Source: Octopus vulgaris (taxonomy: Eukaryota). From it: 64,000 nucleotides of DNA. Shown here piece by piece: positions 1,232 through 36,502 of the stretch (within the stretch, counting starts at the first letter, position 1; each line of letters starts with the position of its first letter). The stretch is from the NCBI GenBank assembly GCA_951406725.2, contig OX597814.1:2790001-2854000 (forward strand). Direction: 5' to 3'. The notes under the pieces were generated by a model. The model had not been told where the DNA came from, did not search any database, and worked only from the letters and a program-made list of their open reading frames with translations. Made by a program: the position numbers and the translations under genes.

Positions 1232-2949
1232 TGTTTCTTTATTAGCCACACAGGGCTGCACACAGATAGAACAAATTACAAGGTAGAGCTTTTCTTTTGA
1301 AGGTTTAAGAAAAAAAAAAAAAAAAAAAAAAAAAAAGGAAGGGGGAGTTTCGATCAAAAGGGATCGTAAAAGGAGAGAAAGAGGACAAAAAAAAAGGGGG
1401 TTTAAAAAAAAGGGGGGAGGAAAAAAATTGATCAATAGGGATCGTTATCACAGAAATGTCAATATGAAGTGTAAAGGGGAGGACAGGTGAGGTTTACCCG
1501 TGCAAAGAAAAGCCTACGGAAAAGACCACGGTAACCTCGGTCAATGATGTCACATTTTATATTTCTTTTTTTTTTTTTTTTTTGCAAATAAGCAACTCTC
1601 TGTTTTCGATTTCTGGGTTCATAGGACTATGCTCAAGGTGGCTTCGTCATTCATACGTGCCATTCTTGCTACATTCACCCATCTTTTTTTAAAACATTCG
1701 CTAGACAAAACTTGCCTCTCTACTCTCACTTTCCTTTTCAAGTGGTACTTGAAGAAGTTGATGAGAGATTGACCAGAGAGGAAAGTGTTTGTCTCCAATC
1801 CTTTCAGACGCGTCCACCAGATACATTCTTTCGCCATAGCCACAAGGATGATGAAAATAGCTCTTCCTTCCCGTTTGAAGGAAGGAGGCGTGACAATATT
1901 GACGATAGACTCAGCTGATAAACCGACTCGTCCCACACGTGACAGCAGTTGTTCGACATAAGCCCACAGGTCGGAAATTGTTGGACACTGAACGAGTGCG
2001 TGCAGAACGGTTTCGTCGCTCTGACCGCATCTCGGGCAGGTCGGCCCCGTGTTTCTCGAGCCGTGTCTGTAGAGCTTATCCCGAACGGGTAGCGCTTCTC
2101 GGTAGCACTGCCAGGCCAGGGATCTCTGGAAGTTGTCCATGGGCCCTGGCCCGAAAGTCGTCCTGAACAGGCGGGTCAGGTACTCCTCGTCGACGTCCAG
2201 GTTCGCCCCGAGCTCGTCGTCGTACCTCCCCTCCACTAAACCCCTATAGAATGCTTTGGTTGTGTTGAAGTCACTTAAGGTCGACCCAGGACGGCAGAGT
2301 TGCTTGAGGGCAACGCGACACTCGCGGTGCCATTCCCCCTTCCTCGGCCTCTTTTTGATCCACGACTGCAGTTCGGTCATGGAGACGAGCTGCGGGAGAG
2401 CGTGCCTCACAAACGGCGACCACACCTGTTCACCGTCGTCTACATAGAGCCAGAGATGCCGCAGTCTCAGCGCGTGTCTGCGCATCATCAACCACGGCAT
2501 GCCCAGCCCTCCTTTTAACGGGTGTTGACAGCAAATGGATCGCCTGACCATCGGGACGCATCCTTTCCACAAGAAGCGAAAGAGGATGCGTTGTAGTTTG
2601 GTGATGGTAGGGTCGGGACAAGGTACGACGGTCAGGCGGTAGTAGATGACGGACGCGATGTACGTGTTCGCCACCTCCGCTCGACCTTTTAGGGACAGTT
2701 TCCTCTCGGCCCATTGCCGGGCGAGAGTGACCACCCTACTCGTTATCTCGTTCCAGTTCTTCTCCACTTGGAGGTCCGGACCAAACCAGACCCCGAGCAA
2801 CTCAACCGGGCCGTCGGTCCAGCGTCCCACGACGGAGGCGCTGGTGGACGGCATGGGCTTGCTTCTCCAGGTGCCTAGTCGCAAGCCCACTGACTTTTCC
2901 CGGTTGATTTTCGCTCCTGTCACCGCTTCGTAATTTTTCAGTGTCTCGC
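1231..2949 (-). mobile_element. 5'-truncated Tx1/L1-clade non-LTR retrotransposon inserted in (GATA)n
   Basis: Uninterrupted ORF2 C-terminus, T-rich 3'UTR, AATAAA a few bases from the 3' end, (TATC)n at both junctions; near-identical to 17526-18286. Confidence 0.93.
1619..2949 (-). CDS. Tx1/L1-type ORF2 C-terminal part (RT thumb + zf-RVT CCHC zinc finger), 5'-truncated with no native start
   Basis: YEAVTGAKINREKS...LLGVWFG...WAERKLSLKGRA...FRFLW...GGLGMP...CPRCGQSDETVLHALVQCP; the frame is open up to the microsatellite junction. Confidence 0.9.
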
Positions 2950-3018
<69 letters not shown>

Positions 3019-3364
3019 CTGACTGACTGACTGACTGATAGATATAGATATAGATATTTGTAGATACACATATGTAGCAATTTCCATATCATACTTAAAG
3101 CAGACATATTCTTGAAAGCCTACTAAACTGTGGTACTCGTCTGGAGAAGGCATCTCTTCTACACTCATAGCTTAAGACATAAAGAAATTAAAGTGAAGAA
3201 ATATATCAGCTGTCAACGAAAATTACTCAGTAGTGTTTGGGCCATTGATAAATACGTATTTTTGCTTCTTTTAGCAAAATAAGTATTTTAGCTTCATTAG
3301 TAAGTAACCATTAGCAACGCATGCTAAGACAAATCTGGTTGTTAACTGATATCGTTAAACAATG

Positions 3365-12197: not shown

Positions 12198-13493
12198 TTA
12201 GGTTGGCAACTAAGTTCTCACCGTTTTTTTAAATTTTAATTTTTTAAAAACGTTTAATAGAAAATAACAACTAATTAATTAATGATGTATTCAACCTTGT
12301 TGATTACAACTTCTTCCCAACGTTCAACAAGATTTTTAATACCTCGTTGGTAGAAATCACCCGATTTCGACTCGAAAAATTGATCCAACCAAACTCTCAA
12401 TTCTGCATCAGTATTGAACGAAACTCCGCACATAGCATTTGAAAAAGATCAAAAGAGGTGGAAATCCGTTGGTACCAAATCAGGAGATTACGGTGGGTGT
12501 GACAGCACTTCCCTGCCATGCGTTTGAATGGCTACCTTCGTCCTATTGGCGATATGAGTGCGGGCGTTGTCGTGCAGCAGAAGAACTCCATGCTGCCGAT
12601 TAGGTCTTTTCCCTTGAATAGCCATGTTGAGTCGTTCCATCTGTTGAACATAGATTTCCGCGTTGACCGTTTGGTTCCGTTCAAGCAATTCGTGATGGAT
12701 AATCCCTTCCCAGTCCCACCATACGCACAACATCGTTTTACGTGGATGAAGATCTTGTTTCACGCGCGGTGTCGCTTGTTTACCGGGGGTTAGCTATTCC
12801 TTATGCTCCTTCATATTGATGTACAGGTACCATTTTCCGTCGCCAGTAACGATTTGGTAAAGAAATCGTTGCTTGTGTCCATGAGTTGGGCGGTGACGAG
12901 CAAGAAAAACAGCTGAGATTGAGGCTCGTTGATTTTTGTTGTAGTCACTTAAAGCATTCAGAACCCATGCTCCATACTTCTGAGCCTTTCCCATCGAGTG
13001 AAAATGCTTCTCTATAGCAGTGTGGGAGCATTCTATTTTCTCTGCCAGTTCCCTTGTCGCTTGACGAGAATTTTCGTGCAAAATTTGGTTTAATCGCTCT
13101 TCATCGAACTCAAATGGACGTCTCGAACGAGGTGCGTCTTTGAGGCCAAAATTTCCACTTTTGAACTTGGCATACCAACCACAAACTGTTCTTTCAGCTA
13201 TGGTACCCTCTCCATACACAGAATAAATGTCGTGAGCAGCTTTTGCGGTCTTAGAACCTTGATTGAAAGTAAAATGAAGGTGGTGTCGAAACTGCTCGTT
13301 TTTCTTAACTTGACATTCCATTTTAATGATCAGAAATTAAACAAAACTTAGCTAAAATTAACTAGAAAAAAAAAAAAGATTCCAAAATGATTCAAAAATA
13401 GATTTCTCGAAAAAAATAGATTCCAAAATTTAAAAACGCAATAAATTCCAAAATTAAAAAAAAAAAACCGCGGGAACTTAATTGCCAACCCAA
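12198..13493 (-). mobile_element. Full-length mariner (DD34D) DNA transposon, about 1.3 kb
   Basis: TIRs TTAGGTTGGCAACTAAGTTC / GAACTTAATTGCCAACCCAA, TA on both sides. Confidence 0.95.
12275..13321 (-). pseudogene. Mariner transposase pseudogene (in-frame stops, no net frameshift)
   Basis: WVLNAL (WVPHEL), IVTGDGKW, HDNART, PP*SPDLVPTDFHLF; the two ORF-track pieces are in the same frame. Confidence 0.93.
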
Positions 13494-14859: not shown

Positions 14860-15182
14860 ATATATTTAGTGAAGGGAAGAAATGGAGCTGAACGAAGATT
14901 CTACAGAATTCCTTTTATTATTTTCTACACATGTTTCAAAGGCCGCAAATTTCCAAATTCGGAAATTGTGCTATTTCATGGGCTCATAAGGAGCGTTTTG
15001 TTCGAATACCTTGCTGCGCATTTGTTTTGGAGTTTTAAATTCCTGGATTTTCCTGAAGAGAAAGCTGCAAAATGGGCTCCTTATTCAGTCCGAATTTGGA
15101 AATTTGCGGCCTTTGAAACATGTGTAGAAAATAATAAAAGGAATTCTGTAGAATCTTCGTTCAGCTCCATTTCTTCCTTCAC

Positions 15183-16927: not shown

Positions 16928-17447
16928 GTCTATCCGTCTGTCTATCTATCTATCTATCTAATCTAATATATCAATTTATCTCTCCCTCTCTAAAAGGGTG
17001 GTCATTCTCCTAAAATTCTGTATAAATACTTAAATATGATTTCTGATGAAGTTTTGACTAAGCAATACACTCTTTCTCCTATCAAATACTGTCCACAAAT
17101 TCTTTCTATATACATAAATATATACAATCATAATTTTTGATGCACTTATAGATATTTATGGATTTATTTTATTACCTATTTTGAACACTTTTATGTAAAC
17201 TATTTAAACACAAAGCCACACTTAACATTTTCTTATCATTGCAAAAGATTCTATTTCTTAACATTTTCTCATCATAATCAAAGACTGTATGACTGTATTT
17301 TAATATGATTATGATAACCATTTTTTGACACAACAAAGCTTATACAAAGCTTTACATTCTACTTTTGATAATCTTTTGTTAAAAAAGTGAAACCGGTCAA
17401 GTCAATAAACATCTTTAAAAGACCTCTGCATTTTCAAATCCTTTTTC

Positions 17448-17525
<78 letters not shown>

Positions 17526-17526
<1 letters not shown>

Positions 17527-18286
17527 CGCACTCGTTCAGTGTCCAACAATTTCCGACCTGTGGGCTTATGTCGAACAACTGCTGTCACGTGTGGGACGAG
17601 TCGGTTTATCAGCTGAGTCTATCGTCAATATTGTCACGCCTCCTTCCTTCAAACGGGAAGGAAGAGCTATTTTCATCATCCTTGTGGCTATGGCGAAGGA
17701 ATGTATCTGGTGGACGCGTCTGAAAGGATTGGAGACAAACACTTTCCTCTCTGGTCAATCTCTCATCAACTTCTTCAAGTACCACTTGAAAAGGAAAGTG
17801 AGAGTAGAGAGGCAAGTTTTGTCTAGCGAATGTTTTAAAAAAAGATGGGTGAATGTAGCAAGAATGGCACGTATGAATGACGAAGCCACCTTGAGCATAG
17901 TCCTATGAACCCAGAAATCGAAAAGAGAGAGTTGCTTATTTGCAAAAAAAAAAAAAAAAAAAAAGAAATATAAAATGTGACTTCATTGACCGAGGTTACC
18001 GTGGTCTTTTCCGTAGGCTTTTCTTTCCACGGGTAAACCTCACCTGTCCTCCCCTTTACACTTCATATTGACATTTCTGTGATAACGATCCCTATTGATC
18101 AATTTTTTTTCTCTCCCCCTTTTTTTTAACCCCCCTTTTTTGTCCTCTTTCTCTCCATTTACGATCCCTTTTGATCGAAACTCCCCCTTCCTTTTTTTTT
18201 TTTTTTTTTTTAAACCTTCAAAAGAAAAGCTCTACCTTGTAATTTGTTCTATCTGTGTGCAGCCCTGTGTGGCTAATAAAGAAACA
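17526..18286 (+). mobile_element. 5'-truncated Tx1-like LINE copy in (TATC)n
   Basis: Near-identical to the reverse complement of 1231-2001; (TATC)n at 17449-17525 and 18287-18304; ORF tail ALVQCP...LSIVL ends at 17908. Confidence 0.95.
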
Positions 18287-21206: not shown

Positions 21207-22466
<1,260 letters not shown>

Positions 22467-22470
22467 TCAT

Positions 22471-23437
22471 TACAGATATAGAATAAAAAATTATTAATTT
22501 AATAAATTAACAAATTTTACCAAGTAGTTTTCGGTATGGAAAAGAACCATATTCGGTAAAAACTTATACAAAAAGTTTTTTTATATATAATTATAGCAAT
22601 AATTAAGGGTTTAGCAACAAGTTGCTTCACAACATACTGAAAATATTAGAAAGAGCAGCCAAAAGGCCGCTATTTCTTTTTCCTACAAAATATGTCTCCA
22701 CAGATAACAATATTTGTAACTCACTTAGGCAAAAAAGAAGAAAAATAAAGAAATCAAACAGTCTTCGATTAATTATGGAGGCGTTTCTGGATCAGAATTA
22801 TAAAAATTCATTTCCGTTATCAACATAATATTTCGAAAATTATAAATCTGAAAATACTAGGTAAACTTACCTCTTGTATTTCTGACCAAGCACCATACAC
22901 AAGATAATCAGCATACCCAAACTTATATAGACGAGTGAATTCGTATTTCCCTCCAATTTTCTAGTACTGCAGAAAAAAAGATCTGCAGTTTTGTTATCAG
23001 GGAGTGAAATAATCATTCCAGATATAGGGTAAAAAATTATTAATTTAATAAATTAACAAAATTTACTAAGTAGTTTTAACAAAATTTACTAATTCACTCG
23101 TCTATATAAGTTTGGATATGCTGATTATCTTGTGTATGGTGCTTGGTCAGAAATACAAGAGGTAAGTTTACCTAGCATTTTCAGATTTATAATTCTCGAA
23201 ATATCATGTTGATAACGGAAATGAATTTTTATAATTCTGATCCAGAAACGCCTCCATAATTAATCGAAGACTGTTTGATTTCTTTATTTTTCTTCTTTTT
23301 TGCCTAAGTGAGTTACAAATATTGTTATCTGTGGAGACATATTTTGTAGAAAAAGAAATAGCGGTCTTTTGGTTGTTATTTCTAATATTTTCAATATATG
23401 GTGAAGCAACTTGTTGCTAAACCCTTAATTATTGCTA

Positions 23438-23442
<5 letters not shown>
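22471..23442. mobile_element. Family H3 divergent member: about 549-bp unit + partial tandem + about 350-bp inverted arm
   Basis: cagatatag..taaaaaattattaatttaataaattaac at about 22473 and 23019; 23091-23442 inverts about 22585-22941. Confidence 0.9.
22772..22829 (-). ncRNA. Hammerhead-like fold with U3-A8 core variant (second copy on + at 23203-23260)
   Basis: ATTATG-TTGATAA-cGGA...TCCa-GAAACGCCTC^CATAAT, at the position homologous to the canonical hammerhead of sibling units. Confidence 0.65.
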
Positions 23443-23483
<41 letters not shown>

Positions 23484-23975: not shown

Positions 23976-24169
23976 AACATTATGTACAATATTTACATTT
24001 GACAGATATTTGTCCTCATCTTGTTTGTTGTTAACACAACGTTTCAGCTGATATACCCTCCAGCCTTCTTCAGGTGTCTTGGGGAAATTCCGAACCTGGG
24101 TTCTCATTCCTGAAGTATTTTTCGATGTTGTTGTATTTGTTATTGTTGTTATTGTTATTATTATTATTA

Positions 24170-35517: not shown

Positions 35518-36502
35518 ATATAAAAGGGCTTAGTAAAATAAATTACTTTGCCGCATACTGAACTCATTAGAAATAGCAGCTAAAAAACTTTTTTAAAAAA
35601 CCATTTCTAATACTTAAAGAAAATCTCTCTCGTATAGTGTTTGGTCAACTCAACTCACGAAAGTTTGGGGGTAAAGACATAAAAAAAATCAAATGCAAAG
35701 GTTATTCGAGAACGTACGTTTCAAGATTAGTCATCAAGACACTTCTATCATCAGCTCAGAAACTCCATGGTTTGGATTTGAAAACACTGAAAGTGAGAGC
35801 ATACTCTTTCGGCCTCTCATCACCTTCGAAGATCTGCTCGTAACTAACAGTGCCAACAAACTCAAACATGCAAGCGAAGAATTTCTGTCCTCCCCTTTCC
35901 ACCAGCGTGGGTTAAAATCAACAAACACTCTGCTTATTTCGGTAAAATCCGAAGCATTAATTAGAGGGAGATTAATTATAATTTCAACAATTGAGGGTAA
36001 AATTAATTAATTATTAATTAATTTCACCAAGTGTTCAGTATGCAAAGGGACCATGTTTGAGTTTGTTGGCACTGTTAGTTACGAGCAGATCTTCGAAGGC
36101 GATGAGAGGCCGAAAGAGTATGCTCTCACTTTCAGTGTTTTCAAATCCAAACCATGGAGTTTCTGAGCTGATGATAGAAGTGTCTTGATGACTAATCTTG
36201 AAACGTACGTTCTCGAATAACCTTTGCATTTGATTTTTTTTATGTCTTTACCCCCAAACTTTCGTGAGTTGAGTTGACCAAACACTATACGAGAGAGATT
36301 TTCTTTAAGTATAAGAAATGGTTTTTAAAAAAGTTTTTTAGCTGCTATTTCTAATGAGTTCAGTATGCGGCAAAGTAATTTATTTTACTAAGCCCTTTTA
36401 TATATTGTAATAATTTGAATTCGCCTTAAATGGTCCCTTTGCATACTGAACACTTGGTGAAATTAATTAATAATTAATTAATTTTACCCTCAATTGTTGA
36501 AA
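35513..36502. mobile_element. Family H3: circularly permuted unit + about 450-bp inverted arm, within (TA)n
   Basis: 36053-36410 inverts 35513-35869 almost perfectly; 36420-36502 inverts 35981-36052; hammerheads at 35705-35762 (-) and 36160-36217 (+). Confidence 0.92.
36160..36217 (+). ncRNA. Type I hammerhead ribozyme (predicted)
   Basis: tctGAG-CTGATGA-tAGA-agtgtcttgatgactaa-TCTt-GAAACGTACGTT^CTCga; palindromic stem III AACGTACGTT. Confidence 0.8.

What the first reader, a model, noticed from the sequence alone, without database searches (positions are those of the whole stretch)
22772..22829. U3-A8 hammerhead core variant in an H3 sibling
Seen: at the position where sibling units have CTGACGA or CTGATGA, both arms here read TTGATAA, with stem I changed to ATTATG/CATAAT. 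Known: positions 3 and 8 form a Watson-Crick pair in the active fold and compensatory swaps can retain activity. Caveats: C>T and G>A are common decay changes, the two arms are not independent, and stem III (GAAACGCCTC) has a mismatch.
Basis: partly seen in the sequence, partly recalled or inferred. Interest (0 to 1): 0.7.

Follow-up and report, generated by a model that had tools for sequence, protein, structure and literature searches.

The report
Known hammerhead variant, decayed retroelement copy
This is an aged copy of a jumping repeat whose small self-cutting-RNA motif carries an already published U-A swap of a core base pair; the swap is shared across the repeat family, this copy is predicted not to cut, and copies with only half the swap are nearly as common, so a rescue effect is not shown.

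Summary
Observation confirmed. Both arms of a ~360-nt inverted repeat read TTGATAA inside a type I minimal hammerhead motif. The motif belongs to a non-coding repeat family with a few hundred copies, likely moved by Penelope-like (PLE) enzymes.

U3-A8 is inherited, not decay: 83 of 152 loci carry it, against ~4% background C>T/G>A. But the half-swap U3-G8 is also amplified (39 of 152; 59 of 100 listed in a second branch). C3-G8 persists (23) and C3-A8 is rare (5). The 3-8 association is no stronger than ordinary subfamily linkage (rank 75 of 351), so compensation is not shown.

This copy's stem III change (4 of 152 loci) breaks the dimer palindrome, and it no longer folds as a hammerhead in silico. 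U3-A8 in PLE hammerheads is published (Cervera & de la Peña 2014; Perreault 2011). It is also near-fixed in another, younger PLE family here (96 of 100), and this scan has noted it before on other DNA, in this and other genomes.

Residual interest: one family spread with C-G, U-G and U-A cores, a ready natural series to assay. Cleavage is untested.

The parts
22772..22829 (-). Type I minimal hammerhead motif of the minus arm (the finding)
22817..22823 (-). Core strand U3 U4 G5 A6 U7 A8 A9 (U3 at 22823, A8 at 22818)
   Evidence: family states
22824..22829 (-). Stem I 5' strand ATTATG, pairing with CATAAT at 22777-22772
   Evidence: each pair kept in 136-147 of 152 loci (the strands were partly search anchors)
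22788..22816 (-). Stem II: mismatched 10.1-11.1 (C-A here; A-A in 87 and C-A in 45 of 152 loci), then GGA/UCC, an internal loop and a 5-bp distal stem
22778..22787 (-). G12 A13 A14, stem III strand and C17 (predicted cut 3' of 22778). Position 16.2 (22780) is C here but G in 132 of 152 loci, which breaks the ACGCGU self-complementary hexamer
   Evidence: homoduplex -1.5 vs -7.5 kcal/mol
23203..23260 (+). Second hammerhead motif on the plus arm; same core and stem III change, plus a stem I mismatch (ATCATG)
22586..22945 (-). Inverted-repeat arm 1; its partner is 23087-23445
23087..23445 (+). Inverted-repeat arm 2, running into (TA)n
22463..23445 (.). Whole non-coding insertion between TA/TG microsatellites. 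The longer minus arm ends at ~22463, and a second 69-nt copy of that end lies at 23009-23077
   Evidence: (D16)
21572..21634 (-). Context, not part of the insertion: canonical C3-G8 hammerhead (CTGACGA) of the young sister family

Best explanation
The stretch is a type I minimal-hammerhead motif with a U3-A8 core in an aged copy of a non-coding repeat family likely moved by Penelope-like (PLE) enzymes; U3-A8 is one of three core states (C-G, U-G, U-A) shared by many copies and likely inherited from source elements, and this copy is predicted to be catalytically inert. In source elements, two motifs from neighbouring tandem units would pair through the self-complementary stem III (ACGCGU or ACGUACGU). 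They would then cut after position 17, releasing a ~600-nt unit that a PLE reverse transcriptase/GIY-YIG protein would copy into (TA)n as partial-tandem and inverted arms. This step is inferred from anatomy, from the sister family and from the literature. The core likely drifted C-G to U-G to U-A by two transitions in source lineages, the second easy where 7-8 is a CpG. The wobble state was good enough to keep spreading, so A8 looks permitted after U3 rather than required. Here, a C at 16.2 in both arms removes the dimer helix, the two motifs lie on opposite strands, and a transcript across the locus would fold into one long hairpin.
For: Shown: 83 U3-A8, 39 U3-G8, 23 C3-G8 and 5 C3-A8 among 152 loci; 19/14/6/1 among the 41 loci picked by the 3' anchor alone; 104/65/24/7 among 202 arms. 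Background decay is 3.7-3.8% and core states cluster on the tree. Four of four intact natural copies that printed give the dimeric hammerhead as minimum-energy cofold; neither window arm does. 57 of 58 bases of the plus-arm motif are paired in the locus hairpin. Structure was kept during the family's own spread: distal stem II is U-A in 124 and C-G in 44 of 187 loci, and stem III is palindromic in both lengths (longer form in 18 of 202 arms, all U3). The sister family (62% identical over 257 nt) differs by double-sided changes in three stem I pairs and one stem II pair. It is joined head-to-head, with no microsatellite between, to a GIY-YIG-like PLE end in L216 (that Pfam hit is below the curated cut-off). 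No similarity to a PLE RT/EN fragment and no Pfam hit inside the element. Literature: U3-A8 in Schistosoma PLE min-HHRs and dimer action (PMC4209133); inverted 5'-truncated copies and microsatellite bias (PMC8557442).
Against: No cleavage or RNA-end data. No direct junction between this family itself and a protein-coding PLE was found, so the carrier is inferred. C3-A8 never forms a subfamily while the three pairable states do, which does hint at selection on pairing; the 5 seen vs ~2 expected by decay and the few independent events give no power either way. The window pair's nearest tree neighbours are U3-G8 copies, without strong support, so a private G8A here cannot be excluded; it is unlikely, at roughly 4% per copy. 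The order C-G to U-G to U-A has no rooted tree behind it: C3-G8 copies are most diverged (5.5%), but U3-G8 (3.4%) is not older than U3-A8 (4.1%), and that measure inflates small subfamilies. The sample is not unbiased: 30 loci were chosen by likeness to this copy and most others by loop-specific anchors.
Confidence: 0.75

Rival explanations
1. True compensatory rescue: C3U lowered cleavage, G8A restored it, and U3-A8 lineages won out.
For: C3-A8 is depleted (5 of 152; Fisher p 2.5e-6 without correction for kinship). U3-A8 is the largest class. A younger PLE family here is 96 of 100 U3-A8 with no G8 among those listed. Perreault 2011 says such swaps were shown active in vitro.
Against: U3-G8 is the majority of one whole branch (59 of 100 listed) and is not older than U3-A8. 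Phi 0.40 ranks 75 of 351, and both positions link more strongly to unrelated flank sites. In one deep-mutagenesis hammerhead only the G-C swap rescued the pair; other single and double changes in the motif were low (PMC9901934).
Confidence: 0.2
2. Catalysis was lost early in this lineage. The fold is kept only as a structural signal, or as a passenger processed in trans, and the core drifted neutrally.
For: Lineages spread with U3-G8, with C4 (42 of 187 loci) and with a mismatched 10.1-11.1 pair in nearly all copies. A G5C core recurs in a few loci (3 of 167 arms). Both window arms share the palindrome-breaking 16.2 change, so a broken motif may have been the template.
Against: Subfamily-level variation falls on positions 3, 4, 7, 8 and 10.1, with a small linked lineage at 11.1 and 17. 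None of G5, A6, A9, G12, A13, A14, A15.1 or U16.1 has a common variant. A post-hoc Fisher test on hand-entered counts gave p 0.001-0.01, but absence at those eight sites alone has p ~0.2. The young canonical sister family also spreads with a U-U 10.1-11.1 mismatch (13 of 100 listed), and such a mismatch is reported as tolerated. The shared 16.2 change may come from conversion between arms (143-nt identical run).
Confidence: 0.3
3. U3-A8 here is just two post-insertion decay transitions.
For: C>T and G>A are the commonest private changes. The nearest tree neighbours are U3-G8.
Against: U3 is in 158 and A8 in 103 of 187 loci, against 3.7% decay. Other CpGs in the motif are ~90% intact.
Confidence: 0.03
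4. Positions 3 and 8 vary because they are silent in an overlapping reading frame (TGY Cys, then TGA/TAA stops).
For: A frame ending in TGY followed by a stop in the core is open for 46-86 codons of element sequence in some copies.
Against: No Pfam match for 3 of 3 such frames, no similarity to a PLE RT/EN fragment, and indel columns in subfamilies.
Confidence: 0.04

Closest known systems
Minimal hammerheads (min-HHRs) of metazoan Penelope-like elements, incl. the U3-A8 variant of Schistosoma mansoni Cercyon PLEs (Cervera & de la Peña 2014, PMC4209133; parts 1-2 of 4 of the text read; supplements not seen)
   Same: Type I topology, loop-less self-complementary helix III for dimer action, U3-A8 core (~1,300 hits there), pairs of motifs on opposite strands 100-700 bp apart, high within-genome variability.
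   Different: No conserved G10.1-C11.1 pair here (A-A or C-A mismatch), a 6-bp helix I, no linked ORF, and a large amplified U3-G8 class. The parts I read do not describe that class.
Natural U3-A8 hammerheads (Perreault et al. 2011, PMC3088659; section 8 and passages read)
   Same: C3-G8 covaries to U3-A8 in nature; a U10.1-U11.1 mismatch and U4C are reported as tolerated.
   Different: Those are individual ribozymes, not a graded series within one repeat family.
Animal non-LTR retrozymes as non-autonomous PLE derivatives (PMC7229834, passages; bioRxiv 10.64898/2026.07.22.740005, abstract and a word search only)
   Same: Non-coding, A+T-rich, hammerhead-bearing units; PLE enzymes proposed as carrier.
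   Different: The unit here is ~600 nt (sister family 560 nt) against 170-400 nt. Copies are mostly single, truncated or inverted rather than long arrays, and circular RNA is not shown.
PLE insertion anatomy (Craig et al. 2021, PMC8557442; passages read)
   Same: Partial tandems, an adjacent inverted 5'-truncated copy, microsatellite targets.
   Different: No RT or endonuclease inside this element.

Membership tests
Hammerhead ribozyme, PLE min-HHR type | Core boxes in order with helices I and II (G5 A6 A9, G12 A13 A14, A15.1-U16.1, H17) | tested here: met
Hammerhead ribozyme, PLE min-HHR type | Watson-Crick pair between 3 and 8 | tested here: met
   U3-A8 in this copy; not met in 39 U3-G8 (wobble) and 5 C3-A8 of 152 loci
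Hammerhead ribozyme, PLE min-HHR type | Self-complementary helix III allowing a dimer | tested here: not met
   This copy has C at 16.2 and no dimer fold. The family meets it: C15.2-G16.2 in 125 of 152 loci, dimer fold in 4 of 4 printed copies.
Hammerhead ribozyme, PLE min-HHR type | G10.1-C11.1 closing pair | tested here: not met
   C-A here; A-A 87, C-A 45, A-C 11 of 152 loci
Hammerhead ribozyme, PLE min-HHR type | Site-specific self-cleavage | not testable with these tools
   Only assembled contigs were available
Rfam hammerhead families | Covariance-model match | tested here: not met
   No hammerhead hit at E<=10 on 22480-23430; nothing at gathering score in the whole window, including the canonical sibling
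Non-autonomous PLE derivative / non-LTR retrozyme | Dispersed multi-copy, non-coding, hammerhead-bearing unit | tested here: met
   (157, 188, 142 matches); no ORF likeness
Non-autonomous PLE derivative / non-LTR retrozyme | Inverted 5'-truncated copy next to the insertion | tested here: met
   Window arms; 13 of 152 loci hold two arms
Non-autonomous PLE derivative / non-LTR retrozyme | Head-to-tail tandem units | tested here: inconclusive
   Circular permutation seen by eye. A landmark test printed no tandem pair. The sister family has 560-nt tandems.
Non-autonomous PLE derivative / non-LTR retrozyme | Microsatellite (TA)n target | tested here: inconclusive
   Seen directly in the window. 83 of 96 short-ended arms have (TA)4 nearby, but 70 of 202 lacked the landmark and the element's own tail is TA-rich.
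Non-autonomous PLE derivative / non-LTR retrozyme | Mobilised by a PLE RT/GIY-YIG protein | tested here: inconclusive
   One chimeric junction for the sister family (L216); none found for this family
Non-autonomous PLE derivative / non-LTR retrozyme | Expressed as linear/circular monomer RNA | not testable with these tools
Autonomous PLE | RT plus GIY-YIG ORF between pseudo-LTRs | tested here: not met

The most novel reading that the evidence does not exclude
The family records a natural neutral path through a ribozyme active site. Source elements with C3-G8, U3-G8 wobble and U3-A8 cores, some also with C4 and all with an unpaired 10.1-11.1 junction, each kept cutting well enough as dimers to spread, while C3-A8 never founded a subfamily. 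A U3-G8 wobble core, low-activity in test-tube mutagenesis, would then be viable in vivo, and the family would be a ready genotype series for measuring how little cleavage PLE mobilisation needs.
Probability: 0.3. Interest if true: 0.5.

Novelty: new member of a known kind. Interest (0 to 1): 0.24.

Why it matters
As flagged it is ordinary: U3-A8 in PLE hammerheads has been in print since 2014, it recurs in this genome, and this copy is predicted inert. What remains of value is the spread of core states in one family. Whether PLE hammerheads must cleave, and how well, for these elements to move is open, since their measured in vitro activity is low (PMC4209133). Natural copies with otherwise intact motifs exist for C-G, U-G and U-A and could be assayed side by side.

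Tried and rejected
Rfam: the window-wide E-value scan was swamped by microsatellite/miRNA matches; the focused and gathering scans gave no hammerhead.

Sequencing runs: no RNA holder listed. Four runs laid were contigs only and cannot show ends, strand or expression; they are not used as evidence.

Tree: star-like, with 6 of 157 inner branches strongly supported (160 of 165 arms kept, core masked). Independent-pairs tests had 5 and 9 pairs and cannot reach significance (181 rows, 179 with both traits). I did not root the tree with the 62%-identical sister family.

Overlapping-ORF idea: rejected. Search for a protein-coding parent of this family: PLE ORF ends beside family arms in L014, L149 and L216 are separated from them by microsatellite or other DNA and carry different ends, so they were not counted as parents. 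The first 3'-end test was too strict, and the second is confounded by the element's own tail.

Rows dropped: 2 of 167 arms under 65% identity (one is the sister-family motif). 57 of 157, 88 of 188 and 42 of 142 pattern matches were never listed and so not seen; only 30 of the 100 listed were fetched.

Papers not held, so not read: Przybilski & Hammann 2007, Lünse et al. 2017, Nelson & Uhlenbeck 2008, Martick & Scott 2006. They may hold U3-G8 kinetics or natural U3-G8 PLE variants. Searches for U3-G8 wobble hammerheads found nothing relevant (also 13), but this library lacks those key papers, so absence from print is not claimed. No supplements were opened; those of PMC4209133 and PMC9901934 may bear on the U3-G8 question. 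Sequence look-up in earlier findings returned nothing.

Full report
OBSERVATION. The minus strand of 22772-22829 reads stem I ATTATG, core TTGATAA, a 29-nt stem II region, GAAACGCCTC and CATAAT. The plus arm at 23203-23260 repeats it with ATCATG in stem I. The arms are a 360-nt inverted repeat with 12 mismatches and one gap, identical over a 143-nt run covering most of the motif, set between TA/TG microsatellites. Siblings with CTGACGA and CTGATGA lie at 21628, 35754 and 36168. Position numbers follow the standard hammerhead scheme (recalled; consistent). The genome is 2.8 Gb. Earlier AI notes call it octopus; I did not test that.

FAMILY. Patterns with N at the core found 157, 188 and 142 genomic matches with zero reversed-control hits; the first two overlap. 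Among 152 fetched loci, positions 3 and 8 are U-A 83, U-G 39, C-G 23, C-A 5 and other 2. Among the 41 picked by the 3' anchor alone they are 19, 14, 6, 1 and 1. With added loci, 202 arms give 104, 65, 24, 7 and 2; the commonest heptamers are TTGACAA 45, TTGATAA 33, TTGATGA 31 and TCGATGA 19. In the second loop II branch, the 100 listed matches are U-G 59, U-A 37, C-G 2, C-A 1 and other 1 (hand count). Private C>T and G>A rates are 3.8% and 3.7%. With the core masked, positions 3 and 8 need 11 and 22 changes on the tree against 26 and 58 for shuffled labels. U3-A8 is therefore inherited from source elements, and so are U3-G8 and C3-G8. Sampling is not unbiased: 30 loci were chosen by likeness to this copy.

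IS IT COMPENSATION? C3-A8 is depleted (Fisher p 2.5e-6, ignoring kinship), but phi 0.40 ranks 75 of 351 diagnostic column pairs, and positions 3 and 8 each link more strongly to flank sites. Independent-pairs tests are null and underpowered. C3-G8 copies are the most diverged (median 5.5%, n 21), but U3-G8 (3.4%, n 58) is not older than U3-A8 (4.1%, n 94; p 0.054), so the wobble state was not a brief intermediate. The measure inflates small subfamilies. The five C3-A8 loci sit as scattered tips against about 2 expected from decay. The sister family has a CpG at 7-8, which offers an easy mutational route to A8 (inference). Net reading: A8 seems allowed only after U3, but U3 did not need A8 to spread.

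WAS THE FOLD UNDER SELECTION? Probably. Against the young sister family (62% over 257 nt; 99 of 100 listed CTGACGA), three stem I pairs and one stem II pair differ on both sides. Inside the family, the distal stem II pair is U-A in 124 and C-G in 44 of 187 loci. Stem III is self-complementary in both its 6- and 8-nt forms (18 of 202 arms have the longer one, all U3). Each of these may be a single event. Common variants fall on positions 3, 4, 7, 8 and 10.1 and on none of G5, A6, A9, G12, A13, A14, A15.1 or U16.1. The post-hoc test on hand-entered counts gave p 0.001-0.01, while absence at those eight sites alone has p about 0.2. Against activity: 10.1-11.1 is unpaired in nearly all copies, 42 of 187 loci carry C4, and in one deep-mutagenesis hammerhead only the G-C swap rescued this pair (PMC9901934, passages). 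For tolerance: U10.1-U11.1 and U4C are reported in working ribozymes (PMC3088659), and the young sister family carries a U-U mismatch in 13 of 100 listed copies.

THIS COPY. Position 16.2 is G in 132 and C in 4 of 152 loci. The stem III homoduplex falls from -7.5 to -1.5 kcal/mol. Neither arm cofolds into the hammerhead dimer, whereas four intact copies and the sister motif do. The two motifs are on opposite strands, and a read-through transcript is predicted to bury 57 of 58 motif bases in a long hairpin. Both arms share 8 of 13 rare states including this one, either from the template or by conversion between arms. Its nearest tree neighbours are U3-G8 copies with weak support, so a private A8 is a small residual possibility.

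MECHANISM. Shown: multi-copy, non-coding, inverted arms, and microsatellite flanks in the window. Inferred: a ~600-nt circularly permuted unit, dimeric self-cleavage after position 17 in source elements, and copying by PLE enzymes. The best local support for the carrier is L216, where a sister-family arm joins head-to-head, without microsatellite, to the end of a GIY-YIG-like PLE (Pfam E 9e-4, below the curated cut-off). No such junction was found for this family. That PLE end carries its own U3-A8 minimal hammerhead: 783 exact pattern matches, 96 of 100 listed TTGAAAA and none with G8. RNA data were uninformative.

KNOWN AND NEW. Cervera & de la Peña 2014 report U3-A8 in Schistosoma PLE min-HHRs (~1,300 hits), dimer action, opposite-strand pairs and low in vitro activity. 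Perreault 2011 reports natural U3-A8. Earlier notes of this scan list the same variant repeatedly, and one mentions another family here with four versions of a key pair (unchecked). The motif works like a PLE min-HHR. This copy fails two defining features (dimer palindrome, G10.1-C11.1) and is not filed as an active ribozyme. Verdict: real, inherited, known variant, inert copy; new member of a known kind, interest 0.24. The most novel live reading is a viable U3-G8 wobble core on a natural neutral path (probability 0.3).

Noticed in passing
window 21292-22285 (core at 21628, minus); L222-L251: Very young sister family: top 40 copies 99-100% identical, 346 exact pattern matches, ~560-nt head-to-tail tandems, canonical CTGACGA core; 13 of 100 listed have a U-U 10.1-11.1 mismatch.
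   Followed up: partly
L216:117-700: Head-to-head chimeric junction, without microsatellite, between a GIY-YIG-like PLE 3' end and a sister-family arm; suggests template switching by one enzyme.
   Followed up: partly
L149, L216, L231, L236, L252-L257: Abundant PLE end with its own U3-A8 minimal hammerhead (core TTGAAAA, 2-bp stem II, ACCGGT stem III); 783 exact matches.
   Followed up: partly
L178, L180, L183, L193 and others: Branch with U3-C4...G8 core (three departures counting 10.1-11.1) yet a perfect 8-nt palindromic stem III and a compensated distal stem II pair.
   Followed up: partly
L047, L081, L104, L111, L116, L120: C3-G8 lineage, mostly C4, with linked C11.1 and A17 (cleavage triplet GUA instead of GUC).
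   Followed up: no
L086, L087, L122: Three loci share a G5C core (TTCATAA), possibly a small lineage from a catalytically dead source.
   Followed up: no
window 35705-35760 (minus) and 36162-36217 (plus): Third sibling inverted pair with CTGATGA core, U-U stem II closure and an 8-nt palindromic stem III.
   Followed up: no
window 15047-15134 (plus) and about 24030-24080 (minus): Further hammerhead-like motifs with CTGAAGA cores from other repeat families (for the first; read by eye for the second).
   Followed up: no
window about 22864-22875 (minus) and 23160-23171 (plus): A splice-donor-like AG/GTAAGT lies ~45 nt upstream of the hammerhead; PLE pseudo-LTRs can hold introns. Some subfamilies lack it.
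   Followed up: no
L014:1-927 and L018: PLE RT-thumb/GIY-YIG ORF end (Pfam GIY-YIG passes) beside a family arm across a TA microsatellite; L018 holds a different GIY-YIG-like fragment.
   Followed up: partly
window 1622-3088, 12797-13336, 17372-17905: Open frames that look like a LINE reverse-transcriptase fragment (first and third) and a mariner-like transposase fragment (second); names from recall, not scanned.
   Followed up: no
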